Origin: Candidatus Poseidoniaceae archaeon | Lineage (GTDB): Archaea; Thermoplasmatota; Poseidoniia; Poseidoniales; Poseidoniaceae | NCBI GenBank assembly: GCA_938084455.1 | Contig: CALKDX010000028.1 | Location: forward strand, 306-64,305 | Length of the DNA: 64,000 nt | Direction of reading: 5' to 3' | In this document: positions 18,516-60,346 of the stretch, piece by piece | Numbering within the stretch: position 1 is the stretch's first letter | Layout: every line of letters starts with the position of its first letter | Position numbers and translations under genes: made by a program | The notes under the pieces: generated by a model | The model's input: the letters and a program-made list of their open reading frames with translations, nothing else | Databases searched by the model: none | What the model was told of the DNA's origin: nothing

Positions 18516-19751
18516 TTGATGAAAGAGAACAGTTTCTTCTCAGATAAGGGGAACCTCATGTCCGACCTTATTATGCAACAAATCGAAACCAGAATGGCCC
18601 AGAAGGGAATCGATCTCAATCTTCTAAGCGATCAAGAATTATCCTTAGTTGCAGAGCGATTTTTGGGCGATGCACCGCCCGGTCACCTTCCACGAGAAAC
18701 CGTGATTTCAACCCTCCAAAGCCAAGAACCAATTCAGCAATGGGCTATGGGCATCAAGTCGAGGGTAGCCGCTGCCGCTGCTGAAAAAATGACCGACACC
18801 ACTCGAACGGCTGTAACTCAAGCAAGGTCAGCATACGAGGCTCGCCGAGACAAAGACCCTCGATTGGCCATGATTGCCGACAAATTTGGCGAATGGCTCA
18901 ATGAATCAAATTACAACTCTGCAGAATTGACCGCAATGGCTGATGCAAATCAAGATGGCATCATCAGCAATGACGAAATTCTCAACCTGATACGCACCAT
19001 GTCAAATGCCGAACCCCCATCTTGGGTGGTCGACCTTGTTGTGCAGCACATTGATGCTGACGGCAACGGATCAATCACGCTTCCAGAATGGTGGGCCTTC
19101 CTCGAGTCGATTGGTTTTGAGGGTGCCAGCCCAGTCTTGGACCCCATCGTCCCAGAACCAACCGCTGCGCCAACTCCGAAACCAATCGCTGCGCCAACTC
19201 CGGAACCAATTATTGCGCCAACTCCTGCACCCGAACAAGATGCCCTTGCTGGCATAGCTTCGACGACCGCAGCCCCAGCAGCGGTTGCGGTCGCAGCAAC
19301 TGCAGCAGCAGTTGCCCCCCAAGCAGTTGCAAAGCCTACGCCTGAACCAGTTGCACAACCAACCCCCGTCGTAGAGGCCGTTCCTGCTGCTCCCGCATCA
19401 AGCGTCGACCCAATGAGTCACGAAGGCATCATTGAGGCACTCTCTGGAGCAAGACTGTTGTCTGAATTCAACTCTATTGTTGCCCAATCAACCTCGCAAA
19501 CATGCACGGTCAAAGTTCAGAGTACTGAGCGATCGCTCATGGCAAGCGGAGAATACCGCGGTGGTCAAACCATCACGGGTGCCCTCAACGGAAGCGATCA
19601 TGTTGTGGCCATTCGATTCCCAGTGGCCGAAACTGAATTCATTGAAGGACTCAAAACTGGCCAAATTGTAACCTCAGAGGCAGTCATTTACCGATGGTCC
19701 GGCGCACTTAAGCAGGCCAACCTAGAAGCCACTGGCGCTCGAATTGCTTGA
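18516..19751 (+). CDS. cytoplasmic EF-hand calcium-binding protein with a Pro/Ala/Thr-rich tandem-repeat linker and a C-terminal unknown domain
   Basis: Two canonical 12-residue EF loops, 'DANQDGIISNDE' and 'DADGNGSITLPE' (DxDxDG/NG...E). Linker 'PTAAPTPKPIAAPTPEPIIAPTPAPE'. No signal peptide. Starts 16 nt after the nucleotidyltransferase gene. Confidence 0.6.
   Translation: MMKENSFFSDKGNLMSDLIMQQIETRMAQKGIDLNLLSDQELSLVAERFLGDAPPGHLPRETVISTLQSQEPIQQWAMGIKSRVAAAAAEKMTDTTRTAVTQARSAYEARRDKDPRLAMIADKFGEWLNESNYNSAELTAMADANQDGIISNDEILNLIRTMSNAEPPSWVVDLVVQHIDADGNGSITLPEWWAFLESIGFEGASPVLDPIVPEPTAAPTPKPIAAPTPEPIIAPTPAPEQDALAGIASTTAAPAAVAVAATAAAVAPQAVAKPTPEPVAQPTPVVEAVPAAPASSVDPMSHEGIIEALSGARLLSEFNSIVAQSTSQTCTVKVQSTERSLMASGEYRGGQTITGALNGSDHVVAIRFPVAETEFIEGLKTGQIVTSEAVIYRWSGALKQANLEATGARIA
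19143..19235 (+). repeat. in-frame ~27-nt tandem repeat (about 3.4 copies) encoding P-[TI]-AAPTP-[KE]
   Basis: 'caaccgctgcgccaactccgaaac' / 'caatcgctgcgccaactccggaac' / 'caattattgcgccaactcctgcac' are seen directly. Confidence 0.5.
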
Positions 19752-23281: not shown

Positions 23282-24517
23282 ATGTTCAAGAACGGTTGGC
23301 GTAAGCCTTCTGTTGTTATGACAAGTTACCTCGACCGAATTGGGGCAGGCGCTGTGCTTGCCAATCCGGAAGTCTTGGACTTCGATTGGACTCCGCCAGA
23401 ACTTGTGGGGCGTGAGCTGGTTCAACGCGAGTTGGCTGCTAAATTCTCGACACTCAATCACCCAGAGGGGGCAGGTCGGGCGGTGATCACTGGCCCGGTA
23501 GGAAGTGGAAAAACCGTGCTGGCAGACACGTTCTGCAGGGACATTCAACGACATCTTGCTGGAAAAAGGAATGTGCGCCATGTCAAAGTCAACTGCCGCA
23601 ACGCCTCCACGAGCATGCGGGTCGTTCAACGAATCCTCCACTTGCTCGACCCCGGGCATCCGGACAGAGGCTTGTCCATGGGCGAATTGCTCTTGAGCCT
23701 GAGGCGGTTATTGCGCAGAGAATCTTCTCACCTGATCGTTGTCCTTGATGAGGTGGACCACATGTTGCGACGAAGTGGAGACGATCTGCTTTACCAACTG
23801 CTTCGAATTGATGAAGACCAAGAAGGAAAGGGCACCATGTCATTGATTCTCATCAGCCAAGAGCAAGTCCTTGACATGCTTGAAACAGCTGTCATTTCTC
23901 GTATGGGTGCAACAAACCACATTCGAATCCAACCCTATACCGTTGAGGGGCTCGAAGCCATCGCTCTTCAAAGAGCACAACTTGGCCTTGTCCACGGAAC
24001 ATGGACACCAGAGATCATTCGACTTATTGCAGAGAAAGCAGCCCCGAGTGGAGATGCGAGAAAGGCCATTGAGTTGCTCAATGCTGCTGTAGAACGGTGT
24101 GAATTCCGCCAGGATGGACATAATGAGCCTCACCTCATCATCGAGGACATTCACGAGCCAGCAAATTCCTCAGCGGTGATTTCAGGAAGCAATCTCGAAG
24201 TCATTGACGATTTACCAAGTCACGCCATGTTGGTGCTGCTGGCGATGTGCCGGCGTCTTACCAACCAAGAGTCGATGACCACCGGTGATGTTGAACAATT
24301 GTATGCGGTAGTGTCAGAGGAATACGATGTCAAGATGAAGAGCCATACAACCGTTTGGAAATACCTCAAAGAGTTCGAAACAAGGCAACTGACCGTCTCC
24401 CGAGTGGCCACAATTGGCGGAGGACGAGGACGTACAACTCACTTGAGCATGCCACATTTCCTTCCAAAGGACCTCTCAAGCCGGCTCGAAATGTTGCTGA
24501 AAAAGCGATTCCGCTGA
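23282..24517 (+). CDS. orc1: Orc1/Cdc6 replication initiator
   Basis: 411 aa. Walker A 'ITGPVGSGKTVLADTF', Walker B 'LIVVLDEVDHM', and a C-terminal winged helix ('VVSEEYDVKMKSHTTVWKYLKEFETRQL'). Confidence 0.8.
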   Translation: MFKNGWRKPSVVMTSYLDRIGAGAVLANPEVLDFDWTPPELVGRELVQRELAAKFSTLNHPEGAGRAVITGPVGSGKTVLADTFCRDIQRHLAGKRNVRHVKVNCRNASTSMRVVQRILHLLDPGHPDRGLSMGELLLSLRRLLRRESSHLIVVLDEVDHMLRRSGDDLLYQLLRIDEDQEGKGTMSLILISQEQVLDMLETAVISRMGATNHIRIQPYTVEGLEAIALQRAQLGLVHGTWTPEIIRLIAEKAAPSGDARKAIELLNAAVERCEFRQDGHNEPHLIIEDIHEPANSSAVISGSNLEVIDDLPSHAMLVLLAMCRRLTNQESMTTGDVEQLYAVVSEEYDVKMKSHTTVWKYLKEFETRQLTVSRVATIGGGRGRTTHLSMPHFLPKDLSSRLEMLLKKRFR

Positions 24518-26852: not shown

Positions 26853-27293
26853 TTGATATATGATAAAATGCAACTATGCCTTATGAGTGAATCCGAAAGC
26901 GTCGATGGGAGCCGAACATCAGCCCAAATCAACTCGGTAAAGAGCCAAGCGTTCGCACTCACTGATGCCCTGATCGACCTTGGAGTCTCAGTAGGAGTTG
27001 TCCGAGTCATGATCTGCCTTTATTTGAATGGAGAAACAACAAGCAAGAATCTGCAAGCCAGTTGTGAATTGCGTCAGCCCGAAATAAGCACGGCCATCAA
27101 GCAATTGACTGATCTTTCACTTGTCACGACTCGACGTTCGGGGTCCGAAGGACGAGGACGCCCATCTCACCTCTACAACCTATGCATGCCAATCAACAGC
27201 TGCGTGGAGATTCTGTTGTCAGATGTCGAAGAGAGAATACAGGCTATGAAAAATGGTGTCCTCAAGGTCGAACGACTGACCCAAGGGCTTTGA
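26853..27293 (+). CDS. winged-helix transcriptional regulator (TrmB/MarR-like)
   Basis: 'ETTSKNLQASCELRQPEISTAIKQLTDLSLVTTRRSGSEGRGRPSHLYNL' is the HTH plus wing 'RGRP..Y' typical of TrmB-like regulators. An AT-rich promoter-like region (ttgatatatgataaaatg) lies upstream. Confidence 0.4.
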   Translation: MIYDKMQLCLMSESESVDGSRTSAQINSVKSQAFALTDALIDLGVSVGVVRVMICLYLNGETTSKNLQASCELRQPEISTAIKQLTDLSLVTTRRSGSEGRGRPSHLYNLCMPINSCVEILLSDVEERIQAMKNGVLKVERLTQGL

Positions 27294-27593
27294 TCAGGGC
27301 AGCGTAAACAGGACATCGTCCCCGTGCCCGTCAAGCAATCCAAGTTTGACACCTGCATCAATCCAGGCATGTGCGTAGTTGATTGCACCAAAAGCACGCA
27401 CATGATCTCCAATGTTGAGGAAATGCTGAGCGTCTGATGCATAATCATCGGCCATGCGAAGCATGATCGATAATTGCGAGGACTCCGGGGAGCCATCAGC
27501 ATGAATTGGAGTTGCTTTTTCACGGGCCCTTCGGGTGATATCGAGGTACTTCTCGACCCGTCCAACTGAAACGTGTTCTAGGTCTTCAGTCAC
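27294..27593 (-). CDS. DUF357-family archaeal protein
   Basis: 'FGAINYAHAWIDAGVKLGLLDG' matches the DUF357 YaHaWlDaGvrlGl signature. 99 aa. Start overlaps the stop of the upstream gene. Confidence 0.45.
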   Translation of the reverse strand: MTEDLEHVSVGRVEKYLDITRRAREKATPIHADGSPESSQLSIMLRMADDYASDAQHFLNIGDHVRAFGAINYAHAWIDAGVKLGLLDGHGDDVLFTLP

Positions 27594-28639
27594 TCTCCAC
27601 CCTCCTTTTGACGCTTGAGCAAGCGACGAACATCTTCCGTTCTGCCTAATGCTCCGTAGAGTTCCACTGCGCGGGACAACCGGCCTTCATCCTCCGCCAG
27701 TTGTGCGCGGGTGAAGATCGCCTTGCGTTCTTCCCAATTCTTGGCCAATGCGGCTTCAGCAGCGGCTTCGAACCGCCCTTGCCGCTCTGCTTGTGCCAAG
27801 TGAGGGGCCGACCATCTTCGGAGAAGTCCATCGCGAGTGGCGGTCGCCATGGCGTCAGGCGTGAGCGCCACAAGAAGGTCGCCCAAGTCCATGTCATGCC
27901 CGAGGACGGTGGTCTCTTCCTCGACACCAGATACGCTTGACAGGTGGTGCAATTGACCTTCAATGCCCAAGACCCACCAACCATCTGCGCTTCTCACACC
28001 TTCCATAGGTTCGAGGGAATCGTATTCAACGCGTTCAAGCCCATCCCAGCCAAATGGATGAGGCACACCTTCCCAAAGCCCACCGTCGCTGGCTTGCATC
28101 AACAAGCGGCCTTGCATGAGGGGGGTAACCCAACTCCAGACCCTGTCCTCTAAGCATCGCTTTTGGTCGGTCTGAGCAAGTCTTGCGCACCAAAGGCGAC
28201 CGTCTGAGGCTTGCCACATCATGTGTTCTCGGTCCAGCCAACCTAACAAACGGCGTACTTTTCCACTTTCCAAGCGCCTTAGACCCCGACCTTCGTGCGA
28301 GAAAAGATGGAGGTGCCCTTGGCGCCCAGAAAGGATCCAACCGCCACCTGGACGCGCTGAAACATCTGTGAACCCACCTGTTGTTGAACGGCCTTCATGC
28401 AGCATGGAACCGTCCATTGTGGAGAGCACATAGAATCCGTGCGCAGCGAGCACCGCAACAACACCGTTGTTCACCTGAAGGGCATGGGCTTTGAATGGCA
28501 ATTCGATGCGCCAGCGTTGCGTACCATCAACCTCAAGCATGAACAAATCCAGACCGCTGCTGACAATCATTCCGCCTTCTGCTGGAGCGAGCGCTGCAAT
28601 ACGGTTTGGTGCTTGCCACGACCATGTGATTGTCCACAT
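27590..28639 (-). CDS. beta-propeller (PQQ/WD-like) repeat protein
   Basis: Repeated ~40-aa units with D/S-G-x-L/W patterns (ASDGRLWCA, ASDGGLWEG, SADGWWVLG). A C-terminal alpha-helical tail. ATGA start/stop overlap with the upstream gene. Confidence 0.4.
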   Translation of the reverse strand: MWTITWSWQAPNRIAALAPAEGGMIVSSGLDLFMLEVDGTQRWRIELPFKAHALQVNNGVVAVLAAHGFYVLSTMDGSMLHEGRSTTGGFTDVSARPGGGWILSGRQGHLHLFSHEGRGLRRLESGKVRRLLGWLDREHMMWQASDGRLWCARLAQTDQKRCLEDRVWSWVTPLMQGRLLMQASDGGLWEGVPHPFGWDGLERVEYDSLEPMEGVRSADGWWVLGIEGQLHHLSSVSGVEEETTVLGHDMDLGDLLVALTPDAMATATRDGLLRRWSAPHLAQAERQGRFEAAAEAALAKNWEERKAIFTRAQLAEDEGRLSRAVELYGALGRTEDVRRLLKRQKEGGE

Positions 28640-30507
28640 CAGGCTTCACCCCCTTCGATGCCCCAGGCAACAAGCTGGGCTTTTGCCGTCGATGTCATTG
28701 TGTAATACCTACTCCGACCGGTGGCTCGCACGTTCAGAACACCACCTTTGAGAAGACGGTTACAAATCTGAGAGAGCCGTGAACGTTTAACACCCAAATC
28801 CTCCAGGAGCGCTTTATCAGAGGGTGAGAACTTTCGGTGTTTAGCCACGGCGAGGACCGCCATTTCATTAGCGTTCAAAGCAGAGAGTAAACCGATGTCT
28901 AAATGATGCTCCTCATGGTTGATGATTGGCTTGTTTTGCAATGCGGCAAGTGCGTCGATGAAGGCTCGTTGAGAAGTCGCGTTGGTTGGCCCCGCTTCGT
29001 TGTTTGAAAGTGCATTGACAAGCGCTTGGACAGCCTTGGTGAGGGCCTGTACCTCCCCGGGTGCAGAGGGGTGAGAAGGAACAGTTTCTTCCTCTGTGTA
29101 TTGATTGGGCGCCACTGCGTATTCATCGTCGTTGACCTCCGCCTCGTAGAAGCCAATTTCATCATGAATCAATTCGGCAAAGGAAGCGCCTTCCGGTACA
29201 TCGGGAAACCCATCATCTAGAGCCTCTGGATCAAGAATGGGCACTGGATCCCCGCCCTCGCCAACCCAAAGTTCTGCACCTGTTTCTTCAGGAGGCATTG
29301 GTGAATTTTTCACATCCCGTATCCGTCCAACAATACTTGAGAACATACCTCCAATTTGAGGAGGGCCTGAATCGTCGAGGATTGGAACATACTCAGGGGT
29401 TTGGGGGAGGGCTTTGAACGGCATTTCAGGAAGTTCTGCATCCGTTGATTTTTCTTCATCAAGCTGTTCTAAATCCAACTCAAACCCATCCATGGAATCC
29501 ATAATTTTCACATCATCCTGAATGTCCCTCAGTTCTTCACGCTCTGTCCATGGTGCAGAAGCATCAATAAGAGTCCCGAACGGCTTGTTTTCATCAGCCA
29601 TGACGTCGCCTTGTGCTGAAGCCTCATCTTCCTCCTGCACAATGGTTTTCTGCTCGAACGGGGTAAACTCAACCGGCTTTTCAGGCGCTTGTGGCATTGG
29701 TAAGGGCGACCTCAAGATTTGATTGATTCCAGCAAGGGAGGAAGGATTCCTGGCTGCGTCAACTGCGTTTCTGAGAGTTTTTATGATGGCTCCGGGATTT
29801 CCGTAGGTCTTTGACAGCAAATGGCGAGCGTCCTCTACTGAGAGTTGAAACTCTTCTTCGGACACACTTTGAATTCGTGTTTCCACGAGCGCTTGGATTT
29901 CGTCTATTGTAAACGGTTCAAGGTGATGTTCGCTATCGAACATGTGGAGCAACTTTTCTGGAAATTGAGCCTTTTGTCGTGTTTCAAGAACGACTACAAG
30001 TACGCATTGTATGCGATTTAATGAGGAACTAGCAGAGCTGAGCGCTTGTGAAAGCAGATTCATTTCTACGCCTTGGGCATCGATGACAATCAATGGCAGG
30101 CTATGCTTGTAGGCTCTTGAGGCATCTACGAGTTTTTCGACAACCTGTGACCACCCGGACGGACCTTCGTCCCCTGTAAGTTGAAAGTACACTTCACGAA
30201 GAAGCCCCAATGCGGGGTTTTGGAAAGAAATATGGTCGATATGCACCGATTCAGGCGCATGGTTTGCCAGACACCGCAAGAGTGAAGATCGCCCCGAACC
30301 CATTTCCCCAGAAAGCAGAATACGTCGAGAAGACATGAAGCGAATGTACTGCTGCAAGGCAGTTTTCAATTGGACACGGCCCACCAACAGGTGGCTTTGA
30401 CTGGACTCAAGGGGGAGAGTCGAGAATGGATTCGACGAAAGGGTTGGTAGAACGATCTCTTTGCCTTCAACTTCCATGAGACAAGCAACGGCAGAGGGGT
30501 ATTTCAT
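28639..30507 (-). CDS. AAA-like NTPase domain (Walker A Lys replaced by Arg) plus a long acidic low-complexity linker and a C-terminal winged helix, with Orc1/Cdc6-like architecture
   Basis: 'RRILLSGEMGSGRSSLLRCLANHA' is a P-loop with GxxGxGRS. 'LPLIVIDAQG' is Walker-B-like. About 250 aa are D/E/P-rich. C-terminal 'MAVLAVAKHRKFSPSDKALLEDLGVKRSRLSQICNRLLKGGVLNVRATGRSRYYTMTS' is a wHTH. Confidence 0.5.
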   Translation of the reverse strand: MKYPSAVACLMEVEGKEIVLPTLSSNPFSTLPLESSQSHLLVGRVQLKTALQQYIRFMSSRRILLSGEMGSGRSSLLRCLANHAPESVHIDHISFQNPALGLLREVYFQLTGDEGPSGWSQVVEKLVDASRAYKHSLPLIVIDAQGVEMNLLSQALSSASSSLNRIQCVLVVVLETRQKAQFPEKLLHMFDSEHHLEPFTIDEIQALVETRIQSVSEEEFQLSVEDARHLLSKTYGNPGAIIKTLRNAVDAARNPSSLAGINQILRSPLPMPQAPEKPVEFTPFEQKTIVQEEDEASAQGDVMADENKPFGTLIDASAPWTEREELRDIQDDVKIMDSMDGFELDLEQLDEEKSTDAELPEMPFKALPQTPEYVPILDDSGPPQIGGMFSSIVGRIRDVKNSPMPPEETGAELWVGEGGDPVPILDPEALDDGFPDVPEGASFAELIHDEIGFYEAEVNDDEYAVAPNQYTEEETVPSHPSAPGEVQALTKAVQALVNALSNNEAGPTNATSQRAFIDALAALQNKPIINHEEHHLDIGLLSALNANEMAVLAVAKHRKFSPSDKALLEDLGVKRSRLSQICNRLLKGGVLNVRATGRSRYYTMTSTAKAQLVAWGIEGGEA

Positions 30508-30584
30508 CTTTGAGGGAAACCGGGGCTCTTGTGGACCTGTTATGAGGCGTTATTCACGCAACGGGCAGCACCTCCTATGGCCCT

Positions 30585-30642
30585 TTAACGCAACATTAAC
30601 GCATTGTTAACGCGTTAGAAAAGCCGTTAAACCCGTTAATCT
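30585..30642. promoter_or_regulatory. array of five TTAACG hexamers (three direct, two inverted) at ~10-11 bp spacing in the divergent promoter region
   Basis: 'tTTAACGCaacaTTAACGCattgTTAACGCgttagaaaagcCGTTAAaccCGTTAAtc'. Direct copies start at 30586, 30597 and 30607. Inverted copies (CGTTAA) start at 30624 and 30633. 'AACGCGTT' is palindromic. Confidence 0.4.
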
Positions 30643-30748
30643 CGAAGATCATAACCCCACGAGAGGACCCCCAAGTGGCAGCACCAAACCCTTGCCAGTG
30701 CGATTGCTTGATGGGCTAAGTGCACGTGGAGTGAACAAGGGGAGCACC

Positions 30749-32047
30749 ATGGCAGTTGAAAACAGTCGTTTGAGCGGTTTTTTCCGCCACTCAGTACCAG
30801 AACGCCGTCAAATTGTGGCAGAACTTGCCAACTTAACTCCACAGCAAATCGAGGCACTGAGCGCATGTGGAGAGTTGAAGGAAGACGCTGCTGATCGAAT
30901 GATTGAAAACGTAATTGGAACGATGTCCCTGCCAGTTGGCGTTGCTACAAATTTCGTGATTGATGATAAGCACTACTTGGTCCCATTCTGCCTTGAGGAA
31001 TCGAGCGTGGTGGCTGCTGCCTCAAACATGGCCAAAAGATGCCTCAAAAACGGCGGTTTTAGATCCAATAACGACCAACCGCTCATGATTGCCCAGTTGC
31101 AAATTATGGACACGAGAGACCCTTCCAAGGCTTCCGAAGCCTTACACGGAGCCAGTCAAGAACTGATGGACCTGTGCAACAGCCTACCTTCGACCATGAT
31201 CCGACTAGGTGGAGGGTGCAAGCGCATTGAAACTCGGACGCTTGAATCATTAAGTGGTACAATGGTCATTTTGCACATTGTCGTGGATTGCAGGGACGCC
31301 ATGGGCGCTAACGCAGTCAACACCATGGCAGAGCTTATTGCACCAAGAGTCGAACAACTGACGGGTGGACGAGTCCACCTGAAGATCCTCTCAAACTTGG
31401 CAGTCCATCGTCTCGCCCGTATTGAAGCGACATTCACGCCCGAAGAACTCGCAGATGACGGCACAAGAGAGAACGGCCTAGCGGTGATCCAGGGCATCCT
31501 AGAAGCACACCATTTTGCGGTCGCAGACCCGTTTCGAGCAGCCACACACAACAAAGGCGTCATGAACGCAATCAGCAGCGTTGGTCTTGCTTGTGGGCAG
31601 GACTGGCGTGCAATTGAAGCAGGGTGCCATGCATACGCCGCTTATTCCAATGACACCTACGGCTCAATGACGAAATGGGAGCGTCTCGAAGACGGTAACC
31701 TCCTCGGATCGATTGAAACACCGATGGCGGTTGGTACCGTCGGAGGAGCCTCGAAGGTTCATCCAGCGGCCCAAGCAAACTTGGCAATTCTTGGCGTTGA
31801 ATCTGCGCAGGAATTAGCCGGTGTGATTGCAGCCGCAGGATTGTCCCAAAATTTGGGAGCGTTGAGGGCTCTTGCCACAAAGGGCATTCAGGCAGGTCAC
31901 ATGAAGCTTCATTCACGCAATATGGCGGTCAGCGCTGGTGCTGTCGGTGAAGAGATAGAAATTGTGGCCAAACGATTGCAATCGGTTGATGGACCAAAAA
32001 CACAGACAGTGGTTGAACAACTGCTGAAAGCGCTCCGCTCAGAATGA
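30749..32047 (+). CDS. hmgA: class II (NAD(P)H, bacterial-type) HMG-CoA reductase
   Basis: 'ENVIGTMSLPVGVATNFVIDDKHYLVPFCLEE', 'DCRDAMGANAVNTMAE' and 'MAVGTVGGA' match class II HMGR motifs of the Pseudomonas mevalonii MvaA type. They do not match the class I EDAMGMNM pattern. Start is the internal ATG. Confidence 0.7.
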   Translation: MAVENSRLSGFFRHSVPERRQIVAELANLTPQQIEALSACGELKEDAADRMIENVIGTMSLPVGVATNFVIDDKHYLVPFCLEESSVVAAASNMAKRCLKNGGFRSNNDQPLMIAQLQIMDTRDPSKASEALHGASQELMDLCNSLPSTMIRLGGGCKRIETRTLESLSGTMVILHIVVDCRDAMGANAVNTMAELIAPRVEQLTGGRVHLKILSNLAVHRLARIEATFTPEELADDGTRENGLAVIQGILEAHHFAVADPFRAATHNKGVMNAISSVGLACGQDWRAIEAGCHAYAAYSNDTYGSMTKWERLEDGNLLGSIETPMAVGTVGGASKVHPAAQANLAILGVESAQELAGVIAAAGLSQNLGALRALATKGIQAGHMKLHSRNMAVSAGAVGEEIEIVAKRLQSVDGPKTQTVVEQLLKALRSE

Positions 32048-43931: not shown

Positions 43932-44025
43932 ATGTCCCCCTCATCTCAACGGGGGGCAAGCCTCCCCCATCAATGAATCCCTCATGCTTTTCAAACATAG
44001 GGGCGGTAATCAACCCAAGTTGACT

Positions 44026-50163: not shown

Positions 50164-52551
50164 CTATGATTGACCCTCGACGTGGAGGGAACGGCCACCG
50201 AGCGGTGCGAAAGCACGGCCGGATCCGTCGTAGAATTTGCCCATCCATTCCACAAAGTGGAGACGGGCTGCGTGAATGGTTGGGGAAAGAATACCGAGGG
50301 CCAAGGCGAAAACTTGGACGAAGAGGAAGATGACGAGGCAGAGGGCTGCAGTCAAGTATCCAGAGGCGCCTCCTGTTTCAAGGCCGGCTAAGATGTTCTC
50401 CCAACCGAGGATGATGGAAACTTCTGCAATCTTGACACCGGCAACGCCGACCGCCATGATGCGGAGGTAGGACAAAGTGTTAGCAAGAAGACCGAATGTT
50501 TCGATTGGACCCATGATGATGCCACCAGCCCAACCGAACCCTTCGTAGACAGCAAGACCGACAATAAGGCAGCAAATGCCGCCGATTAGAAGGAGGTTCC
50601 AGAGGGGTTGAACTTCAAACAATTCATTGTACCCCATCACGAAGTTACGGCAGACCATGAAGCCTCCAACGAGGATCATCAACCAAGAGCCTTTCTCGAA
50701 GAAAGCAGCGCTAAATCCGTGAGCTTTGTTGACATTGAGGAATCCGATGATGAGGCCAACCAAGATGTGGAAGACGCCGAGGTAAACGGCGAGAGAAACA
50801 TATTGCTCCAACCCGTGGCCTGCACTTGCACGGTGGAACGGCATCATCACGAATGGGTGGTCTGGGTCGCCAAGTCCGAGCAGAACTGCAAGTCCTTCGG
50901 GCAGGACAAACACATCGTATGTCCAATCATAGATGCTGGTGAGGAAGGCAATGTCTGGGCCCCATCGGTACCCGTCTTTGAGCGCCCCCGTTGCGTCATA
51001 CATGCTGCCATCCCACACGAAGCCAAAGCCTTCTGCGAAGATGATGCCCCAAATGATGCACCAAACACCCATCCAGCGGAGGACAGTCATGCCTTTCTGA
51101 GCAAGGGGGTCAACGGCGAAGGGCTTAGATCCAAGCCACAAAGAGAGAGCGACAAGAACCGCACCGTAGCCAAAGTCACCTAGAATCATTCCATAGATGA
51201 AAGGGAAGGTCATCATAATGAGCATTGATGGCTCAAAGGTACCATACTTTGGGCGACCGACGAGATCGACCAAAAGTTCGAATGGTTGGGTGGTTTTTCC
51301 ATTTTGGAATTCGATTGGGGGGACGGCGTCTTCATGGTGTTCATCCACTGAAGGCATAGCACGAATCATTGTGAGAGAGATGTCGAGTTCGGGGAGGTTG
51401 ATTTTCCCATCGCCATCCAGATCCATTGCTTTGACAAGAGGACCAATGTCCCAAGGAGGCAAATCGCCGATGCTCGTAGATTTCAAGGCCTGTTGGAACT
51501 CGTAACTATCGATCTTACCAGAATCATCCAAGTCGATTGATTTGAAGAATTCAAACACGGATTGCTTGGTCTTGATGAGGTAATCAGAAAGCATCACCAA
51601 TTCCTTGGCGACCTCGGGCGAATCATGATGGTCGTCGTGACCGTGGCCGTGGTGTGGGTCAACATAGGCTTCAATCGAAACGTGAGAAGCGATGGCACCG
51701 AGTTTATCCTTCACCATATCGCCTTCAGAGGTCGGAACCCAGCCGTCCAAAGCAAACGCTTGGTCGCTGACAGCCACGAGGGTTGGAGAGGTGTAGATTG
51801 CGTCTTCACGGGTCAAGTGTTCCTCAAGAGCGACAAGTGAGCGACCGTTTCGATCGACCCAAGCGTCGAGCGCTTCTTGAGAGGAAGCGATAGTGTTCTC
51901 GAGTGCGTCGATTTGAGAGAGTACGCTCGAGGCTTTTGAGGCAGGGGAGCCTTCGCCTGCTGGAATTTGAACCGCTTTAGCACCAAGTTCAGCAAGGCAG
52001 ATTTGCACCTCTGCTGCGTGTTGAGTCTGGCAAGCAACTGCGACGATGCCTGGTGCGGAGTGTAGAAGGATTTCCGTTCCAAGCGCTGAGAAGACAGACT
52101 TTGCTTTGCTGGCTCTTGGAGTTTCGCCCACATAGACTTCCAGACCGTCGAACCCGCCCATCAATTCCAGAGGGATGTCCAAAGGAGCAAGGCGTTCGAG
52201 GACCTGATGTTGTTCTTTCAAAGAGGAAATTGAGGCTTCACTTTCCCGGATGGTGTCAAGGTAGGAAAGTGCATCATCGATTTTGGATTCGAACCCTTCT
52301 ACCAATTTCTTGACTTTACCGAGCGACACTGGCCCCTCGATGTTCATCGCCTGAACGGAGGAGGAAACACCGCGAACCTTGGTGAGCAAGGCACTGGTTT
52401 TGTTTGCGCCTTCGGTGGAAAGCGCACGTCCAACACCGATTCCATCTTGGAAATGGCCGTATTCTTCAATGTGAACACATGAGAGCGTAGCGCACATTCG
52501 CAGAACTTCTTCCATCTTATCGACGGGAGCCGCCACGGTAAGGCGGGACAT
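50164..52551 (-). CDS. atpI: A-type ATP synthase subunit I (a-subunit/stator) carrying a His-rich and double EF-hand insertion
   Basis: ~795 aa. N-terminal cytoplasmic domain, then an insertion (aa ~305-412: PHHGHGHDDHHD ... DLDDSGKIDSYE ... DLDGDGKINLPE), then a C-terminal multi-TM domain with the conserved Arg region (LRIMAVGVAGVKIAE). Operon position between atpH and atpK. Confidence 0.8.
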   Translation of the reverse strand: MSRLTVAAPVDKMEEVLRMCATLSCVHIEEYGHFQDGIGVGRALSTEGANKTSALLTKVRGVSSSVQAMNIEGPVSLGKVKKLVEGFESKIDDALSYLDTIRESEASISSLKEQHQVLERLAPLDIPLELMGGFDGLEVYVGETPRASKAKSVFSALGTEILLHSAPGIVAVACQTQHAAEVQICLAELGAKAVQIPAGEGSPASKASSVLSQIDALENTIASSQEALDAWVDRNGRSLVALEEHLTREDAIYTSPTLVAVSDQAFALDGWVPTSEGDMVKDKLGAIASHVSIEAYVDPHHGHGHDDHHDSPEVAKELVMLSDYLIKTKQSVFEFFKSIDLDDSGKIDSYEFQQALKSTSIGDLPPWDIGPLVKAMDLDGDGKINLPELDISLTMIRAMPSVDEHHEDAVPPIEFQNGKTTQPFELLVDLVGRPKYGTFEPSMLIMMTFPFIYGMILGDFGYGAVLVALSLWLGSKPFAVDPLAQKGMTVLRWMGVWCIIWGIIFAEGFGFVWDGSMYDATGALKDGYRWGPDIAFLTSIYDWTYDVFVLPEGLAVLLGLGDPDHPFVMMPFHRASAGHGLEQYVSLAVYLGVFHILVGLIIGFLNVNKAHGFSAAFFEKGSWLMILVGGFMVCRNFVMGYNELFEVQPLWNLLLIGGICCLIVGLAVYEGFGWAGGIIMGPIETFGLLANTLSYLRIMAVGVAGVKIAEVSIILGWENILAGLETGGASGYLTAALCLVIFLFVQVFALALGILSPTIHAARLHFVEWMGKFYDGSGRAFAPLGGRSLHVEGQS

Positions 52552-52578
52552 TTCTGCGGTTGCGAACATGGGAACAAC

Positions 52579-53766: not shown

Positions 53767-53812
53767 GTCGCAGGACGAGGCCGGCGCAGAGCGGGTGGTT
53801 TTTGAAAGACCA

Positions 53813-54616
53813 TCAAGCGATACGCTCGACGGTTTCTGGAGTGATTCCTTCTTCTGGAGTCACTCGGAACACAAGAATTTTCAAGTTCTCAGGAGCGTTT
53901 CGGAATTTCGAAACAACCATCGAAGTTTCAAAATCTGTACCAATAGTTCGTACATTGAACGAGAGGACCATGTCTGCGATGGTGGACAGTTCTTGCTTGA
54001 TTGCTGCATCCAACCCGTTGGTTGATACTGAAATTAACAAGAGGCCTCGGTGCAATTGAGCGTGGGCTTGGAGCATTCGAACCATAGCGACAACACGAGC
54101 TGGATCTTCACGCTGTAGGAAGAAATCGAGGCTATCGACAACGGCCCTAAAGTAAGGACCAAGGGCCATAATTTCATTGGTGACTTCAGTCAGATAATCC
54201 TGATTGTTTTCATCAACAAATCGGGTTTGTGCAAGTCGTTGAATGTCAGCAAGTTGGAAGCCTTCAAGGCGATATCGGCTTGCCAATAGTTCTCGTTCCA
54301 AGACGGTTGAGTTGTATTCTTCGCCGATGGTTCGAACGTTGATGTCCATTGGCCAACTGTACTTTTGGAAGATTCTGACGATTTCAGCCTGACCTTCGTT
54401 TGTGGAGATGTAGAGGGTGTTTTCAGATTCTTCGGCAGGGGAGGTGAATTGCTTTGCGAACAATTCGCTTCCTGAACCAGTGTCTGTGAACGCAATCAGG
54501 GTAAACCCACGCGGGATGCCACCGTGCATTTCATTGTCGAACTTTGGCACGCCAAAGGAACCGACCTTACTGAAGAACTCCTCATCCTCGGGATCGAACT
54601 CAAATTTACGTGCCAT
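53813..54616 (-). CDS. KaiC/RecA-superfamily paralog with a degenerate Walker A (pseudo-ATPase)
   Basis: 'GGIPRGFTLIAFTDTGSGSELFAKQF' aligns with KaiC 'GG.p.gs.tLi.G.pGtGKT.fa.qF' but reads GSGSE instead of GTGKT. Walker-B-like 'RAVVDSLDFF'. Confidence 0.55.
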   Translation of the reverse strand: MARKFEFDPEDEEFFSKVGSFGVPKFDNEMHGGIPRGFTLIAFTDTGSGSELFAKQFTSPAEESENTLYISTNEGQAEIVRIFQKYSWPMDINVRTIGEEYNSTVLERELLASRYRLEGFQLADIQRLAQTRFVDENNQDYLTEVTNEIMALGPYFRAVVDSLDFFLQREDPARVVAMVRMLQAHAQLHRGLLLISVSTNGLDAAIKQELSTIADMVLSFNVRTIGTDFETSMVVSKFRNAPENLKILVFRVTPEEGITPETVERIA

Positions 54617-55218: not shown

Positions 55219-56093
55219 GACCCCCAGCGCGACGTTTTATCGCTTTGTGCGCCCCATTTGAGCATCGGCGTGAGCATGACACCCAAAGGCGTGAGTTCGA
55301 TGGCGTGCTTGGCACGGCTGTGTGCTGTTCCACGCATTTTGACCACTTGTAAAAACCTGAGTAGGTGGCCCATTCGCTCAACGTCACCCATCACAATGAT
55401 GCCGTCTGCGATTGCTTCTTCCACACCGAAAGAGGACCAGTGGGCGTTTTCTGTTGCTGAAGTAATCTCCGAAATCAAAATGGTTGTGCATCCTAGTGTG
55501 GCCAGTTTCTTTCCAAGGGTGAACAGGAAATCACGAATCAATTGCTCGCTCTTAATTTTGTAACAAAGCGTGGTGACTGAATCGATGACGAGGCGGGTCA
55601 CACCGATGGTGTTGACGATATCGACGATGGCTTTGATCAATGCGTGAACGTCATCAAGTTCGAACGACGCCTTCTCAAGACCAAGCCACGAATACAAAAC
55701 GTCCATGTCGAAGACGTTGATGAGACCTGAGTCGACCATGTTCATGTCAAAAAAGGCATATTGGCGGATGTTTTCAAGCAACTTCACAGAAGGTTCTGTT
55801 GCTGTGAAGTGGGCACAAGCCTCTCCAGCCAGCGCACCACGGACAAGAAATTCCATTCCAAGGGTTGTCTTTCCTGAACCACATGTACCTGCAGCGAGCA
55901 CGGTAGAACCGTAGGGGATACCACCACGCAAAATCTCATCCAATCCATGAATCCCTGTGACACATCGGTCTCGGGTGTAAACGGCGGCTGGCTGCATGGG
56001 TAACAAACCGACCAGTTCGGTCGGGTTCATCAAGCAATCGCCCACAACCCAATGGATGAGAGCATTGCAACGCTTCCAAGCGTTGGTCGTCAA
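55215..56093 (-). CDS. KaiC-like RecA-superfamily ATPase (intact Walker A/B)
   Basis: 'GIHGLDEILRGGIPYGSTVLAAGTCGSGKTTLGMEFL' (P-loop) and 'TRLVIDSVTTL' (Walker B). The alternative start MNPTELV at 56030 would remove the 4-nt overlap with the upstream gene. Confidence 0.65.
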   Translation of the reverse strand: MTTNAWKRCNALIHWVVGDCLMNPTELVGLLPMQPAAVYTRDRCVTGIHGLDEILRGGIPYGSTVLAAGTCGSGKTTLGMEFLVRGALAGEACAHFTATEPSVKLLENIRQYAFFDMNMVDSGLINVFDMDVLYSWLGLEKASFELDDVHALIKAIVDIVNTIGVTRLVIDSVTTLCYKIKSEQLIRDFLFTLGKKLATLGCTTILISEITSATENAHWSSFGVEEAIADGIIVMGDVERMGHLLRFLQVVKMRGTAHSRAKHAIELTPLGVMLTPMLKWGAQSDKTSRWGS

Positions 56094-60259: not shown

Positions 60260-60346
60260 TGGCGCGGCAGGGGAGATTTGAACTCCCGAGGTGAGACACC
60301 ACTGGATTAGCAATCCAGCGCAATGGCCAGGCTATGCGACTGCCGC
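60260..60346 (-). tRNA. tRNA-Ser (anticodon GCU), type II with a long variable arm, CCA encoded
   Basis: Reverse complement: GCGGCAG-U-CGCA-UAGCCUGGCCAU-UGCG-C-CUGGA-UUGCUAA-UCCAG-UGGUGUCUCACCUC-GGGAG-UUCAAAU-CUCCC-CUGCCGC-G-CCA. Acceptor 7 bp, D-stem 4 bp, anticodon stem 5 bp with loop UU-GCU-AA, variable stem-loop GGUG/CACC, T-arm 5 bp with UUCAAAU. Confidence 0.85.

What the first reader, a model, noticed from the sequence alone, without database searches (positions are those of the whole stretch)
30585..30642. Helically phased TTAACG hexamer array in the divergent promoter between the AAA-like/wHTH gene and hmgA
The 241-bp region between the minus-strand AAA-like+wHTH gene (start 30507) and hmgA (start 30749) holds five TTAACG hexamers. 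Three direct copies start at 30586, 30597 and 30607, spaced 11 and 10 bp apart. Two inverted copies (CGTTAA) start at 30624 and 30633. The array also contains the palindrome AACGCGTT. This looks like a cooperative binding platform for a dimeric or oligomeric DNA-binding protein, all on one face of the helix. The adjacent divergent gene encodes a wHTH domain, so it is an obvious candidate binder, and this could be autoregulation. The array may also control the mevalonate-pathway gate enzyme HMG-CoA reductase.
Basis: seen in the sequence. Interest (0 to 1): 0.62.

Follow-up and report, generated by a model that had tools for sequence, protein, structure and literature searches.

The report
Conserved TTAACG operator array beside hmgA
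A cluster of six to eight short TTAACG repeats, kept intact in every Marine Group II archaeon examined, sits between the gene for the key lipid-precursor enzyme HMG-CoA reductase and a lineage-specific ATPase/DNA-binding gene, and is most likely that protein's own docking and control site.

Summary
Four of the five start coordinates were off by one. TTAACG starts at 30585, 30596 and 30607 (spacing 11/11). CGTTAA starts at 30625 and 30634. A degenerate sixth copy, CGTTAG at 30613, completes the near-palindrome TTAACGCGTTAG. Five of the window's 14 copies lie within 55 bp.

The window comes from a Poseidoniales (Marine Group II) archaeon. In 50 species-level genomes, TTAACG is about 96-fold enriched upstream of hmgA. 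Hexamer columns are 95% conserved against 55% for the spacers. Direct copies are 11 bp apart. Twenty-nine outgroup hmgA loci show no enrichment.

The array sits in a fixed register with the 5' end of the divergent gene, while its distance to hmgA varies from 42 to 175 bp. That gene encodes a Poseidoniales-only protein with three parts: a degenerate ORC/Cdc6-like AAA+ domain, a long acidic linker and an ArsR-type winged helix. It lies next to hmgA and an array in every locus checked (65 of 65 further metagenome contigs).

My best reading is an autoregulatory binding platform for this protein, which probably also affects hmgA. Binding has not been tested. I could not test whether the motif controls genes elsewhere in the genome. 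An origin-like or centromere-like role is unlikely but not excluded, because a canonical orc1/cdc6 lies 6 kb away and smc-scpAB lies beside hmgA.

The parts
30585..30591 (+). Iteron 1, TTAACGC
   Evidence: Exact match. The column block is conserved in the MGIIa alignment.
30596..30602 (+). Iteron 2, TTAACGC, 11 bp after iteron 1
   Evidence: The 11-bp step is the commonest spacing between adjacent direct copies across loci (38 cases).
30607..30612 (+). Iteron 3, TTAACG; left half of the central near-palindrome TTAACGCGTTAG
30613..30618 (-). Iteron 4, degenerate (CGTTAG on the + strand); right half of the central palindrome. Most relatives have CGTTAA here.
30625..30630 (-). Iteron 5, CGTTAA on the + strand
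   Evidence: The N6 spacer length after the palindrome is invariant in MGIIa.
30634..30639 (-). Iteron 6, CGTTAA on the + strand, 9 bp after iteron 5
   Evidence: The N3 spacer length is invariant in MGIIa.
30539..30554 (.). Block A: GTTA-N6-CGTTAT, two further half-sites 10 bp apart, lying between the array and the AAA-wHTH gene
   Evidence: 81% column conservation in MGIIa. Its distance to the array is fixed, apart from a 10-11-bp insertion in two genomes.
30498..30515 (-). Conserved A/T-rich box (sense strand CCTCAAAGATGAAATACC). Probably the TATA-like element of the AAA-wHTH promoter. It contains the annotated ATG at 30507.
   Evidence: In the view anchored on the NPF codon, the box is conserved in MGIIa 22-28 nt upstream of the M11-type ATG, and it often contains no ATG. 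Its role as a promoter element is inferred.
28639..30507 (-). Gene for the AAA+ / acidic linker / ArsR-type wHTH protein (622 aa as annotated; the likely true start is the ATG at 30477). Candidate binder of the array.
   Evidence: Adjacent to hmgA in all loci checked.
27590..28639 (-). orf349. Its start overlaps the stop of the AAA-wHTH gene, so it is a probable operon partner. Function unknown.
30701..30714 (+). Block C, CGATTGCTTGATGG: a conserved element 35-48 nt upstream of the hmgA ATG. Probably part of the hmgA core promoter or a separate factor's site.
   Evidence: 78% column conservation. Related copies lie upstream of other genes in the window.
30749..32047 (+). hmgA, class II HMG-CoA reductase, transcribed divergently from the AAA-wHTH gene
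   Evidence: Pfam PF00368 at 6e-103 and TIGR00532 at 4e-122.

Best explanation
The TTAACG cluster is a cis-regulatory protein-binding array conserved across the order Poseidoniales.

What is shown:
- It is built from an 11-bp iteron, aTTAACGCnTT.
- The iterons form two opposed sets that meet at a central palindrome, TTAACG|CGTTAA.
- Two further half-sites (Block A) lie nearer the divergent gene.
- The whole array holds a fixed register with the 5' end of the gene at 28639-30507.

What that gene encodes: a Poseidoniales-specific protein with three parts. The first is an ORC/Cdc6-like AAA+ domain whose ATPase motifs are degenerate (Walker A GSGR[ST]S, and no Walker B glutamate). The second is an acidic, low-complexity linker of roughly 250 residues that I take to be disordered. 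The third is an ArsR/SmtB-type winged helix.

What is inferred:
- The winged-helix domain reads the hexamers.
- Neighbouring bound copies are held together through the AAA+ domains on the 11-bp-phased sites.
- The resulting complex sets transcription of the protein's own operon (AAA-wHTH plus orf349).
- Because the right-hand iterons point towards hmgA and in compact genomes end 8-12 bp from its conserved promoter-proximal element, the complex probably also modulates hmgA, the committed step of archaeal isoprenoid lipid synthesis.
- In this window the sites lie upstream of both presumed core promoters. That geometry suits an activating or architectural upstream element better than simple occlusion of the TATA box.
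- In MGIIb genomes, degenerate copies abut the TATA-like box, so repression at high occupancy is also possible.
For: The element is real and under selection.
- Five of 14 window copies lie within 55 bp.
- In 50 Poseidoniales hmgA loci there are 259 copies in the 400 bp upstream of hmgA (13 per kb), against 53 in 392 kb elsewhere (0.135 per kb). In 29 outgroup loci there is no enrichment.
- Hexamer columns are 95% conserved; spacers 55%; flanks 25-50%.
- The extended iteron is aTTAACGCnTT.
- 11 bp is the dominant step between direct copies (38 cases).
- Spacer lengths inside the array do not vary within MGIIa.

The array is tied to the AAA-wHTH gene.
- The distance from the array start to the conserved NPF codon is 154/155 bp in MGIIa, or +11/+22 bp where the first copy is degenerate. 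In MGIIb it is 191-193 bp. The standard deviation is about 7.
- The distance from the array end to the hmgA ATG is 42-175 bp, with a standard deviation of 24-35.
- The only length change between Block A and the array is one helical turn.

The candidate binder fits.
- The C-terminal domain is highly conserved (SPSD..L...L.V.R.RLSQI.N.L.K.G.L.VR..GRSR).
- Its predicted fold matches DNA-binding ArsR/SmtB regulators such as NolR, HlyU, Rv0081 and SqrR.
- The N-terminal domain is an AAA+ fold. Its top structural matches are archaeal Orc1/Cdc6, Hda, ORC, TnsC and MuB, all of which assemble on DNA.

The gene pairing is universal in the sample.
- About 48 of 50 genome loci reach the AAA gene, and all of those show the pairing.
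- All 65 metagenome loci anchored on the wHTH domain that had enough upstream sequence show it.
- The three most divergent family members checked all carry an array. hmgA lies alongside in two of them; in the third the contig ends before it could be seen.
- Gene order to the left of the AAA gene differs between MGIIa and MGIIb, but the AAA|hmgA junction is never broken.

It is not an RNA element: there is no Rfam match, and the fold z-score is only -1.85.
Against: - No binding data exist.
- The co-occurrence of array, protein and hmgA reflects one evolutionary origin inside a block where synteny is conserved generally (eIF2-gamma to SMC). It is therefore weak statistical evidence for who binds.
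- ArsR-type dimers usually read inverted half-sites about 10 bp apart, not 11-bp direct repeats or half-sites 6 bp apart. The binding geometry is unresolved.
- The long linker that I take to be disordered loosens any geometric coupling between AAA+ oligomerisation and site phasing.
- The variable distance to hmgA argues against a strict position-dependent effect on that promoter.
- Promoter and transcription-start positions are inferred from sequence only.
- I could not test whether the motif occurs at other loci in Poseidoniales genomes.
Confidence: 0.55

Rival explanations
1. The array is a genuine regulatory operator or upstream element for hmgA and/or the divergent operon, but an unlinked or different transcription factor reads it. 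Candidates include the MreA/Lrs14-like regulator at 26868-27293 or a regulator encoded elsewhere. On this reading the AAA-wHTH protein is only a regulated target.
For: Conservation and phasing show that some protein binds, but not which one. Archaeal genomes encode many small wHTH regulators, and an MreA-like one lies 3 kb away in MGIIa. An ArsR-type dimer is not an obvious fit for 11-bp direct repeats.
Against: The MreA-like gene is missing from the neighbourhood in most MGIIb loci, although the array persists there. The AAA-wHTH gene is the only sequence-specific DNA-binding candidate present in every locus. Both the motif and the wHTH recognition region are essentially invariant across the order. 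The array's fixed register with this gene's 5' end is typical of autoregulation.
Confidence: 0.25
2. The array is a chromosome-level element rather than a promoter operator. It could be an unconventional replication-origin component, or a centromere-like or condensin-loading site. On this reading it is bound by the ORC/Cdc6-like AAA+-wHTH protein, near orc1/cdc6 and next to smc-scpAB, in a manner analogous to DnaA-box arrays, ORB clusters, or ParR/parC and AspA centromeres.
For: - A canonical orc1/cdc6 lies at 23282-24517, 6 kb away. Its flanking intergenic regions are only 53 and 76 bp, and no canonical ORB motif occurs anywhere in the window. The origin is therefore not where it would usually be expected.
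- The same synteny occurs on a 1.5-Mb contig.
- smc-scpA-scpB abuts hmgA in all loci.
- The N-terminal domain's best structural matches belong to the initiator clade of AAA+ proteins.
- AspA, a centromere-binding ArsR-like protein, appears among the C-domain matches.
- Opposed sets of 11-bp-phased sites resemble the DnaA arrays at oriC and the parC iterons (my own knowledge).
- In the related Methanomassiliicoccales, the origin lies near orc1/cdc6.1 and the ATP synthase genes (PMC4153887). The ATP synthase operon is also in this window.
Against: - There is no AT-rich unwinding element. The intergenic region is 53% GC against 51% for the window, and it shrinks to 157 bp in some genomes.
- The motif bears no resemblance to ORB.
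- Genes converge on this locus, + on the left and - on the right. That is the reverse of what is expected at an origin.
- A regression of skew at fourfold-degenerate sites is inconclusive.
- The ATPase motifs are degenerate.
- The C-domain is ArsR-like, not a Cdc6 winged helix.
- The array's fixed register with a promoter-like box is most simply explained by transcriptional control.
Confidence: 0.1
3. The hexamers are not factor-specific sites. They are repeated TATA/BRE-like core promoter elements (CGTTAA[A/G/T]) for TBP/TFB, or a chance low-complexity cluster.
For: Putative TATA-like boxes in this genome often contain TTAA (for example GCGTTAAGAAG, 30 nt upstream of the 3-dehydroquinase gene at 406). 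Each half of the array reads CGTTAA in the direction of the gene on its own side.
Against: The G/C positions (ACGC) are as invariant as the TTAA core, which TBP binding through the minor groove would not require. The copies lie 60-160 bp from the start codons, not 25-40 bp. Outside this locus the hexamer occurs at background frequency: 62 observed against 56 expected. Chance is excluded by the clustering statistics and by conservation in more than 100 loci.
Confidence: 0.04

Closest known systems
Orc1-2 of Sulfolobales (an Orc1/Cdc6 paralogue that acts as a global DNA-damage-response transcription factor; PMC6061795, PMC9738581)
   Same: It has an AAA+ domain followed by a C-terminal winged-helix DNA-binding domain. 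It is not an initiator, and it recognises a short hexanucleotide motif in promoters.
   Different: Orc1-2 is a true Orc1/Cdc6 family member with an ISM and a Cdc6-type winged helix. The protein here matches no Cdc6 lid or Cdc6_C model. It has an ArsR-type winged helix, degenerate Walker motifs, a long acidic linker, and one dense local array rather than a dispersed regulon, as far as could be seen.
Archaeal AAA_16/ATPase_2 (PF01637) + wHTH proteins, also labelled 'ORC-CDC6-like' (PF24389); uncharacterised
   Same: These are the nearest sequence relatives outside the family. They are 370-440-aa proteins with the same N-terminal P-loop domain and a C-terminal ArsR/MarR-type wHTH.
   Different: They lack the acidic linker of about 250-300 residues. 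None has a described DNA target or a link to hmgA. Similarity is marginal (E about 1e-9 to 1e-7 against a library of 1.84 billion proteins).
ArsR/SmtB-family repressors (NolR, HlyU, SqrR/BigR, CzrA)
   Same: The C-terminal domain has the same fold, including flanking helices of the kind that form the dimer interface. These regulators are commonly autoregulatory at divergent promoters.
   Different: ArsR proteins are stand-alone dimers of about 100-120 aa that bind one or two imperfect inverted repeats. Here the domain is fused to an AAA+ module and faces 6-8 short sites, most of them direct repeats with an 11-bp step.
DnaA-box arrays at bacterial oriC and the dnaA promoter
   Same: An initiator-clade AAA+ protein with a C-terminal DNA-binding domain; two opposed sets of closely spaced, helically phased short sites; the sites lie next to the protein's own gene; autoregulation (my own knowledge).
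   Different: The protein family, motif and domain of life all differ. There is no unwinding element here, and the ATPase motifs look inactive.
ParR/parC (plasmid R1) and AspA (pNOB8) centromere complexes
   Same: Arrays of 11-bp iterons flank or adjoin the promoter of the operon that encodes the binding protein. Binding is cooperative and also represses the operon (my own knowledge). AspA has an ArsR-like fold and appears among the fold matches.
   Different: No partition NTPase of the ParA or ParM type is encoded here. The locus is chromosomal and paired with a metabolic gene. There are fewer iterons, and they are arranged as mirror-image sets.

Membership tests
Transcription-factor operator / upstream array in a divergent promoter | Lies in the non-coding region between divergently transcribed genes | tested here: met
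   The region 30508-30748 lies between the gene at 28639-30507 (-) and hmgA at 30749-32047 (+). The arrangement is the same in all related loci.
Transcription-factor operator / upstream array in a divergent promoter | Motif cores conserved across species while spacers and flanks drift (phylogenetic footprint) | tested here: met
   95% conservation in hexamer columns, 55% in spacers and 25-50% in flanks. 96-fold enrichment in 50 genomes and none in outgroups.
Transcription-factor operator / upstream array in a divergent promoter | Fixed spacing or helical phasing between sites and relative to a core promoter | tested here: met
   11-bp steps. Invariant internal spacers. Fixed distance to the 5' end of the AAA-wHTH gene. 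The core promoter position itself is inferred.
Transcription-factor operator / upstream array in a divergent promoter | Demonstrated sequence-specific binding and an effect on transcription | not testable with these tools
   Needs EMSA, footprinting, DAP-seq or reporter assays.
Archaeal replication origin (oriC with ORB elements) | ORB or mini-ORB consensus repeats (…TTCCAGTGGAAA…) | tested here: not met
   With up to 2 mismatches there are 10 matches against 8.4 expected, and none in this intergenic region. TTAACG is unrelated to ORB (consensus taken from PMC4153887).
Archaeal replication origin (oriC with ORB elements) | AT-rich duplex-unwinding element flanked by the repeats | tested here: not met
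   The intergenic region is 53% GC against 51% for the window. No low-GC stretch lies within or beside the array.
Archaeal replication origin (oriC with ORB elements) | Immediately adjacent to orc1/cdc6 | tested here: inconclusive
   A canonical orc1/cdc6 lies 6 kb away (23282-24517), not adjacent. The adjacent gene is only ORC-like in fold.
Archaeal replication origin (oriC with ORB elements) | Strand-composition or gene-orientation switch of origin polarity | tested here: inconclusive
   Gene orientation converges on the locus, which is terminus-like. The skew regression at fourfold-degenerate sites gives a weak, broad signal of origin sign between 26 and 48 kb.
Orc1/Cdc6 protein family (for the 622-aa protein) | Matches to the Cdc6 lid and Cdc6 C-terminal winged-helix models | tested here: not met
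   Pfam gives only AAA_16 and AAA_22. The genuine Orc1 in the same window matches Cdc6_lid and Cdc6_C. A profile comparison with that Orc1 aligns only the Walker A region.
Orc1/Cdc6 protein family (for the 622-aa protein) | Intact Walker A lysine and Walker B acidic pair | tested here: not met
   Walker A reads GSGR(S/T)S in most members, with K in only a few. Walker B reads hhhhD followed by A, Y, T or V, with no glutamate.
Orc1/Cdc6 protein family (for the 622-aa protein) | AAA+ base-plus-lid fold of the initiator clade | tested here: inconclusive
   The top Foldseek matches are Orc1/Cdc6, Hda, ORC, TnsC and MuB (E about 1e-8, TM about 0.55). They are only about tenfold better than other AAA+ clades.
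ArsR/SmtB winged-helix family (C-terminal domain) | Winged helix-turn-helix fold with flanking dimerisation helices | tested here: met
   AlphaFold2 model with pLDDT 76. Top matches are NolR, HlyU, Rv0081 and SqrR, with rmsd 2.4-2.7 A over about 80 residues. The profile matches BigR at E 1.7e-4. Dimerisation is inferred.
ArsR/SmtB winged-helix family (C-terminal domain) | Reaches the curated family score thresholds (Pfam HTH_5, NCBIfam HTH_metalloreg) | tested here: not met
   Only sub-threshold matches: NF033788 at 15.7 bits against a cut-off of 55, and MarR_2 at 12 bits.
ParR/parC-type centromere | Iteron array adjoining the promoter of an operon that encodes the centromere-binding protein plus a partition NTPase (ParM or ParA) | tested here: not met
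   The iteron array next to the binder's own operon is present. However, no ParA- or ParM-like gene is present, and the operon partner orf349 has no such match.

The most novel reading that the evidence does not exclude
The AAA+-wHTH protein and its mirror-image iteron array form a chromosome-organising complex specific to Marine Group II archaea. It would be an origin-proximal centromere-like or condensin (SMC-ScpAB) loading site, or an unconventional initiator/origin pair. On this reading the promoter location and the linkage to hmgA are secondary, in the way that parS/parC-type sites double as operators.
Probability: 0.1. Interest if true: 0.85.

Novelty: new variant of a known kind. Interest (0 to 1): 0.6.

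Why it matters
Poseidoniales (Marine Group II) are among the most abundant archaea in the surface ocean. None is in culture, and I found no paper describing their gene regulation (my own knowledge). This locus gives a precise, testable pairing of regulator and DNA site:

- a defined 55-bp array plus two auxiliary half-sites;
- a defined 118-residue DNA-binding domain;
- a direct neighbour, HMG-CoA reductase, the committed step of the mevalonate pathway that feeds archaeal membrane lipids.

If the link to hmgA holds, it would be, to my knowledge, the first proposed transcriptional control point for isoprenoid lipid synthesis in a planktonic archaeon. It would also assign a function to a member of the large, uncharacterised class of archaeal 'ORC/Cdc6-like ATPase + winged helix' proteins. 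The test needs only recombinant protein and synthetic DNA, so no culture is required.

Tried and rejected
1. RNA element. There is no Rfam match, and the RNA fold of the array is not better than shuffles (z -1.85). Conservation falls on the hexamers and shows no covariation. Rejected.

2. Bacterial-type promoter or terminator scan. Nothing relevant was found, and the organism is an archaeon.

3. Canonical origin. No ORB motif, no AT-rich stretch and no repeat family near orc1. Skew analysis of a 64-kb window cannot locate an origin.

4. Genome-wide avoidance of the hexamer. Under an order-4 Markov model the hexamer is at expectation outside the array, 62 against 56. Rejected.

5. Regulon search in public collections. 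I therefore did not use a pattern scan on metagenomes, and whether the motif occurs at other loci stays open.

6. Looking for a natural experiment in which the AAA-wHTH gene has separated from hmgA. None was found in 65 metagenome loci or in 3 divergent family members.

8. Literature searches found no description of Poseidoniales promoters or factors, or of an archaeal hmgA regulator.

9. orf349 has no informative sequence match.
Full report
**1. The observation**

The sequence at 30585-30639 reads TTAACGCAACA TTAACGCATTG TTAACGCGTTAG AAAAGC CGTTAA ACC CGTTAA.

- Exact TTAACG copies start at 30585, 30596 and 30607 on the + strand.
- Exact copies on the - strand (CGTTAA on the + strand) start at 30625 and 30634.
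The direct spacing is 11/11 bp, not 11/10.
- The palindrome AACGCGTT is at 30609-30616. It is the core of TTAACGCGTTAG (30607-18), one base short of a perfect 12-mer.
- One mismatch adds a sixth copy, CGTTAG at 30613. A separate pair, GTTA-N6-CGTTAT, lies at 30539-30554.

The window holds 14 copies, as many as shuffles predict, but five of them lie within 55 bp. The Poisson probability is about 2e-12 per window and about 1e-7 after scanning the whole window. No other hexamer clusters as densely, and no other phased pair exists in the 64 kb.

**2. Organism and neighbourhood**

The window is archaeal. It encodes eIF2-gamma, ribosomal protein S6e, a TFIIE/MreA-like regulator, SMC-ScpA-ScpB, an A-type ATP synthase and Orc1/Cdc6.

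The hmgA product is a class II HMG-CoA reductase. Its closest genomic relatives are all Candidatus Poseidoniales, the Marine Group II archaea.

**3. Conservation**

I fetched the hmgA locus from one genome per species. Fifty of these loci are Poseidoniales, covering both Poseidoniaceae (MGIIa) and Thalassarchaeaceae (MGIIb), with HmgA identity down to 55%. All of them carry TTAACG copies upstream of hmgA.

| Region | Copies | Length | Density |
|---|---|---|---|
| 400 bp upstream of hmgA, 50 Poseidoniales loci | 259 | about 20 kb | 13 per kb |
| Rest of the same loci | 53 | 392 kb | 0.135 per kb |
| 400 bp upstream of hmgA, 29 outgroup loci | 4 | about 10.7 kb | 0.37 per kb |
| Rest of the outgroup loci | 73 | 204 kb | 0.36 per kb |

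The outgroups include Marine Group III, other Thermoplasmata, Archaeoglobi and others, and show no enrichment. Outside the array, the hexamer occurs at the frequency an order-4 Markov model predicts (62 against 56).

An alignment of 18 MGIIa intergenic regions shows a clean footprint. Its consensus is TTAACgC-N4-TTAACGc-N4-TAACGCGTTA-N6-CGTTAA-N3-CGTTAA.

- Hexamer columns are 95% conserved.
- Spacers inside the array are 55% conserved.
- Flanking sequence is 25-50% conserved.

Pooling 264 sites gives an 11-bp unit, aTTAACGCnTT. Adjacent direct copies are 11 bp apart in 38 cases.

MGIIb genomes use the same unit in a different layout: two direct copies, two inverted copies, one direct copy, and an isolated copy 77 bp away, which is seven steps of 11 bp.

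**4. Which gene the array belongs to**

Synteny is orf349 <- AAA-wHTH <- | -> hmgA <- scpB <- scpA-like <- smc in every Poseidoniales locus that reaches far enough.

I measured distances from a conserved codon (the NPF motif) in the AAA-wHTH gene to the first exact copy of the array.

- In MGIIa the distance is 154/155 bp, or 165/166 or 177 bp where the first copy is degenerate. Those larger values are +11 and +22 bp.
- In MGIIb it is 191-193 bp.
- The standard deviation is about 7.
- The distance from the array end to the hmgA ATG runs from 42 to 175 bp, with a standard deviation of 24-35.
- The only length variation between Block A and the array is a 10-11-bp insertion in two genomes.

The array, Block A and the 5' region of the AAA-wHTH gene therefore form one rigid module, whereas the hmgA side varies in length.

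Anchoring on the NPF codon also shows a conserved A/T-rich box, GTGAAACATCA(A/T)ATAC. In the window it reads CCTCAAAGATGAAATACC, at 30498-30515. It lies 22-28 nt upstream of the ATG at 30477, which is the start most orthologues use (MEVEG… or MRVxG…).

I infer that this box is the TATA-like element, that the transcript is leaderless or nearly so, and that the annotated ATG at 30507 lies inside the box and is not the true start. On that reading:

- Block A lies at about -62 to -77 from the 30477 start.
- The array lies at about -108 to -162.
- On the other side, the array ends 61 bp before Block C (CGATTGCTTGATGG, 30701-30714). Block C is conserved 35-48 nt upstream of the hmgA ATG.
- In compact genomes the array ends only 8-12 bp before Block C.

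**5. The candidate binder**

The 622-aa product matches only generic P-loop models, AAA_16 and AAA_22. Its homologues number 178 in the word-indexed search. In the exhaustive search of 1.84 billion representatives, 86 clusters at 50% identity reach E 1e-10 or better. Every one that carries a taxonomic name is Poseidoniales.

The family has three parts.

- **N-terminal domain, about 250 residues.** Walker A reads GSGR(S/T)S, and Walker B has an aspartate but no glutamate.
- **Acidic linker, about 250-300 residues.** It is low-complexity, and I take it to be disordered.
- **C-terminal domain, about 115 residues.** It is highly conserved.

AlphaFold2 models the N-terminal domain confidently (pLDDT 89.6). 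Its best PDB matches are archaeal Orc1/Cdc6 (2qby, 1fnn), Hda, eukaryotic ORC/Cdc6, TnsC and MuB. These are only about tenfold better than other AAA+ proteins.

The C-terminal domain model (pLDDT 76) matches ArsR/SmtB regulators: NolR, HlyU, Rv0081 and SqrR. The archaeal centromere protein AspA appears lower in the list.

The nearest sequence relatives outside the family are 370-440-aa archaeal-type proteins. They combine AAA_16/ATPase_2 (with a weak 'ORC-CDC6-like' match) and an ArsR/MarR wHTH.

The protein is not a true Orc1/Cdc6. It matches no Cdc6 lid or Cdc6_C model, and a profile comparison with the genuine Orc1 in the same window aligns only the Walker A region.

**6. Universality of the pairing**

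I anchored a metagenome scan on the wHTH domain. Sixty-five loci had enough upstream sequence. All 65 have hmgA divergently adjacent and carry 2-7 exact hexamers in the intergenic region.

I also checked three of the most divergent family members. All three carry an array. hmgA lies alongside in two of them, and in the third the contig ends before hmgA could be seen.

Gene content to the left of the AAA-wHTH gene differs between MGIIa and MGIIb, but the junction with hmgA is never broken.

**7. Interpretation**

The data show a protein-binding DNA array under strong purifying selection. It has strict internal geometry and a strict register with one promoter.

- The most economical reading is that the adjacent AAA+-wHTH protein binds it and regulates its own operon.
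- The mirror-image right half, the unbroken junction with hmgA and the closeness to Block C in compact genomes make co-regulation of hmgA plausible but less secure.
- The sites lie upstream of both presumed core promoters. In archaea this is the usual place for activators or architectural factors.
- In MGIIb, degenerate copies (GCGTAA or GCGTGA) abut the TATA-like box, which suggests repression at high occupancy.
- Eleven-bp direct repeats suit head-to-tail assembly of AAA+ modules. The long linker and the ArsR-type dimer fold leave the exact geometry open.

**8. Rivals**

- **A different transcription factor.** This cannot be excluded. The MreA-like gene nearby is not conserved in MGIIb.
- **An origin or centromere-like role.** It deserves mention for three reasons. 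A canonical orc1/cdc6 lies 6 kb away with very short flanking spacers. No ORB motif occurs in the window. smc-scpAB abuts hmgA. Against it: there is no AT-rich unwinding element, genes converge on the locus rather than diverge, the skew analysis is inconclusive, and the fixed register with a promoter-like box points to transcription.
- **An RNA element, tandem TATA boxes, or chance.** All three are rejected.

**9. Limits**

- Binding, transcription starts and the direction of regulation are inferred.
- Whether the motif occurs elsewhere in Poseidoniales genomes could not be tested. Only the region around this locus was available, and short patterns saturate the collection scans.
- The co-occurrence of protein, array and hmgA has a single evolutionary origin. 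It is consistent with the model but is not independent proof.

**10. Verdict**

It is a new, order-wide cis-element paired with an uncharacterised class of ORC-like ATPase / winged-helix proteins, next to the gate enzyme of archaeal lipid synthesis. In kind it is a known thing, an iteron-type operator array at a divergent, probably autoregulated promoter. In composition it is new.

Noticed in passing
window 23282-24517 (+): A canonical Orc1/Cdc6 gene (AAA_22, Cdc6_lid, Cdc6_C) lies 6 kb from the array. Its flanking intergenic regions are only 53 and 76 bp. No ORB-like motif or AT-rich repeat region occurs anywhere in the 64 kb. The Poseidoniales replication origin is therefore not in the usual place beside orc1. 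The same synteny occurs on a 1.5-Mb contig (L201).
   Followed up: partly
window 30701-30714; related copies at 27094-27107(-), 27328-27341(-), 43967-43980(-), 53810-53823(-), 56027-56040(-): A second conserved motif, CGATTGCTTGATGG (Block C), lies 35-48 nt upstream of hmgA in MGIIa. It is over-represented in the window: 22 matches with up to 3 mismatches, against 9 expected. Near-copies lie upstream of a UbiE/COQ5-type methyltransferase, a KaiC-like gene and an 847-aa ORF. It could be a promoter element or another factor's site.
   Followed up: partly
window 30475-30515: The annotated start codon of the AAA-wHTH gene (ATG at 30507) lies inside a conserved A/T-rich, TATA-like box. Most orthologues start at the equivalent of Met11 (ATG at 30477), which suggests a leaderless transcript and a protein of 612 aa.
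   Followed up: partly
window 1-64000: Gene orientation switches from mostly + (406-27293) to mostly - (27294-63361), so genes converge on the array region. This is the pattern expected at a replication terminus rather than an origin, even though orc1 is nearby.
   Followed up: partly
window 27590-28639 (-): orf349 overlaps the stop codon of the AAA-wHTH gene, so the two are probably translationally coupled. It has no family match. It shows repeated 'DG.LW'-type segments suggestive of a beta-propeller, followed by a helical tail. It is conserved in MGIIa and part of MGIIb.
   Followed up: partly
L017 3844-4000 (intergenic region upstream of hmgA): In one genome both right-hand copies read CGTGAA instead of CGTTAA, and the leftmost copy reads TTGACG. 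Its wHTH also differs in the recognition region (…RLSQMCNRLLRFGILEAQREGRYRKY…). This could be co-variation between protein and site.
   Followed up: no
L020-L049 (MGIIb loci), about 25-60 nt upstream of the AAA-wHTH start: Degenerate iterons GCGTAA and GCGTGA, repeated at a period of about 10-11 bp, run into the TATA-like box (…ATGCGTAAGTATGCGTGAATGTTATG…). An isolated exact copy lies 77 bp from the main array.
   Followed up: partly
window 50164-52569 (-) and 18519-19751 (+): The ATP synthase subunit I homologue carries an EF-hand pair inserted at residues about 337-394. A separate 410-aa protein also has EF-hand motifs. Calcium-binding motifs are unusual in an archaeal ATP synthase stator subunit.
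   Followed up: no
window 19290-19335, about 35960, about 40018: Other hexamer clusters occur: CAACTG/GCAGCA x4, CCGGCC x4 and CATGCA x4. I read the sequence only at the first of them. It lies in coding sequence and is low-complexity (repeats of GCAGCA and CAGTTGC).
   Followed up: partly
window 60260-60346 (-): A tRNA-Ser (GCT) gene lies between a large CARDB-domain protein gene and the UbiA/CtaA (heme O/A synthase-like) gene pair.
   Followed up: yes
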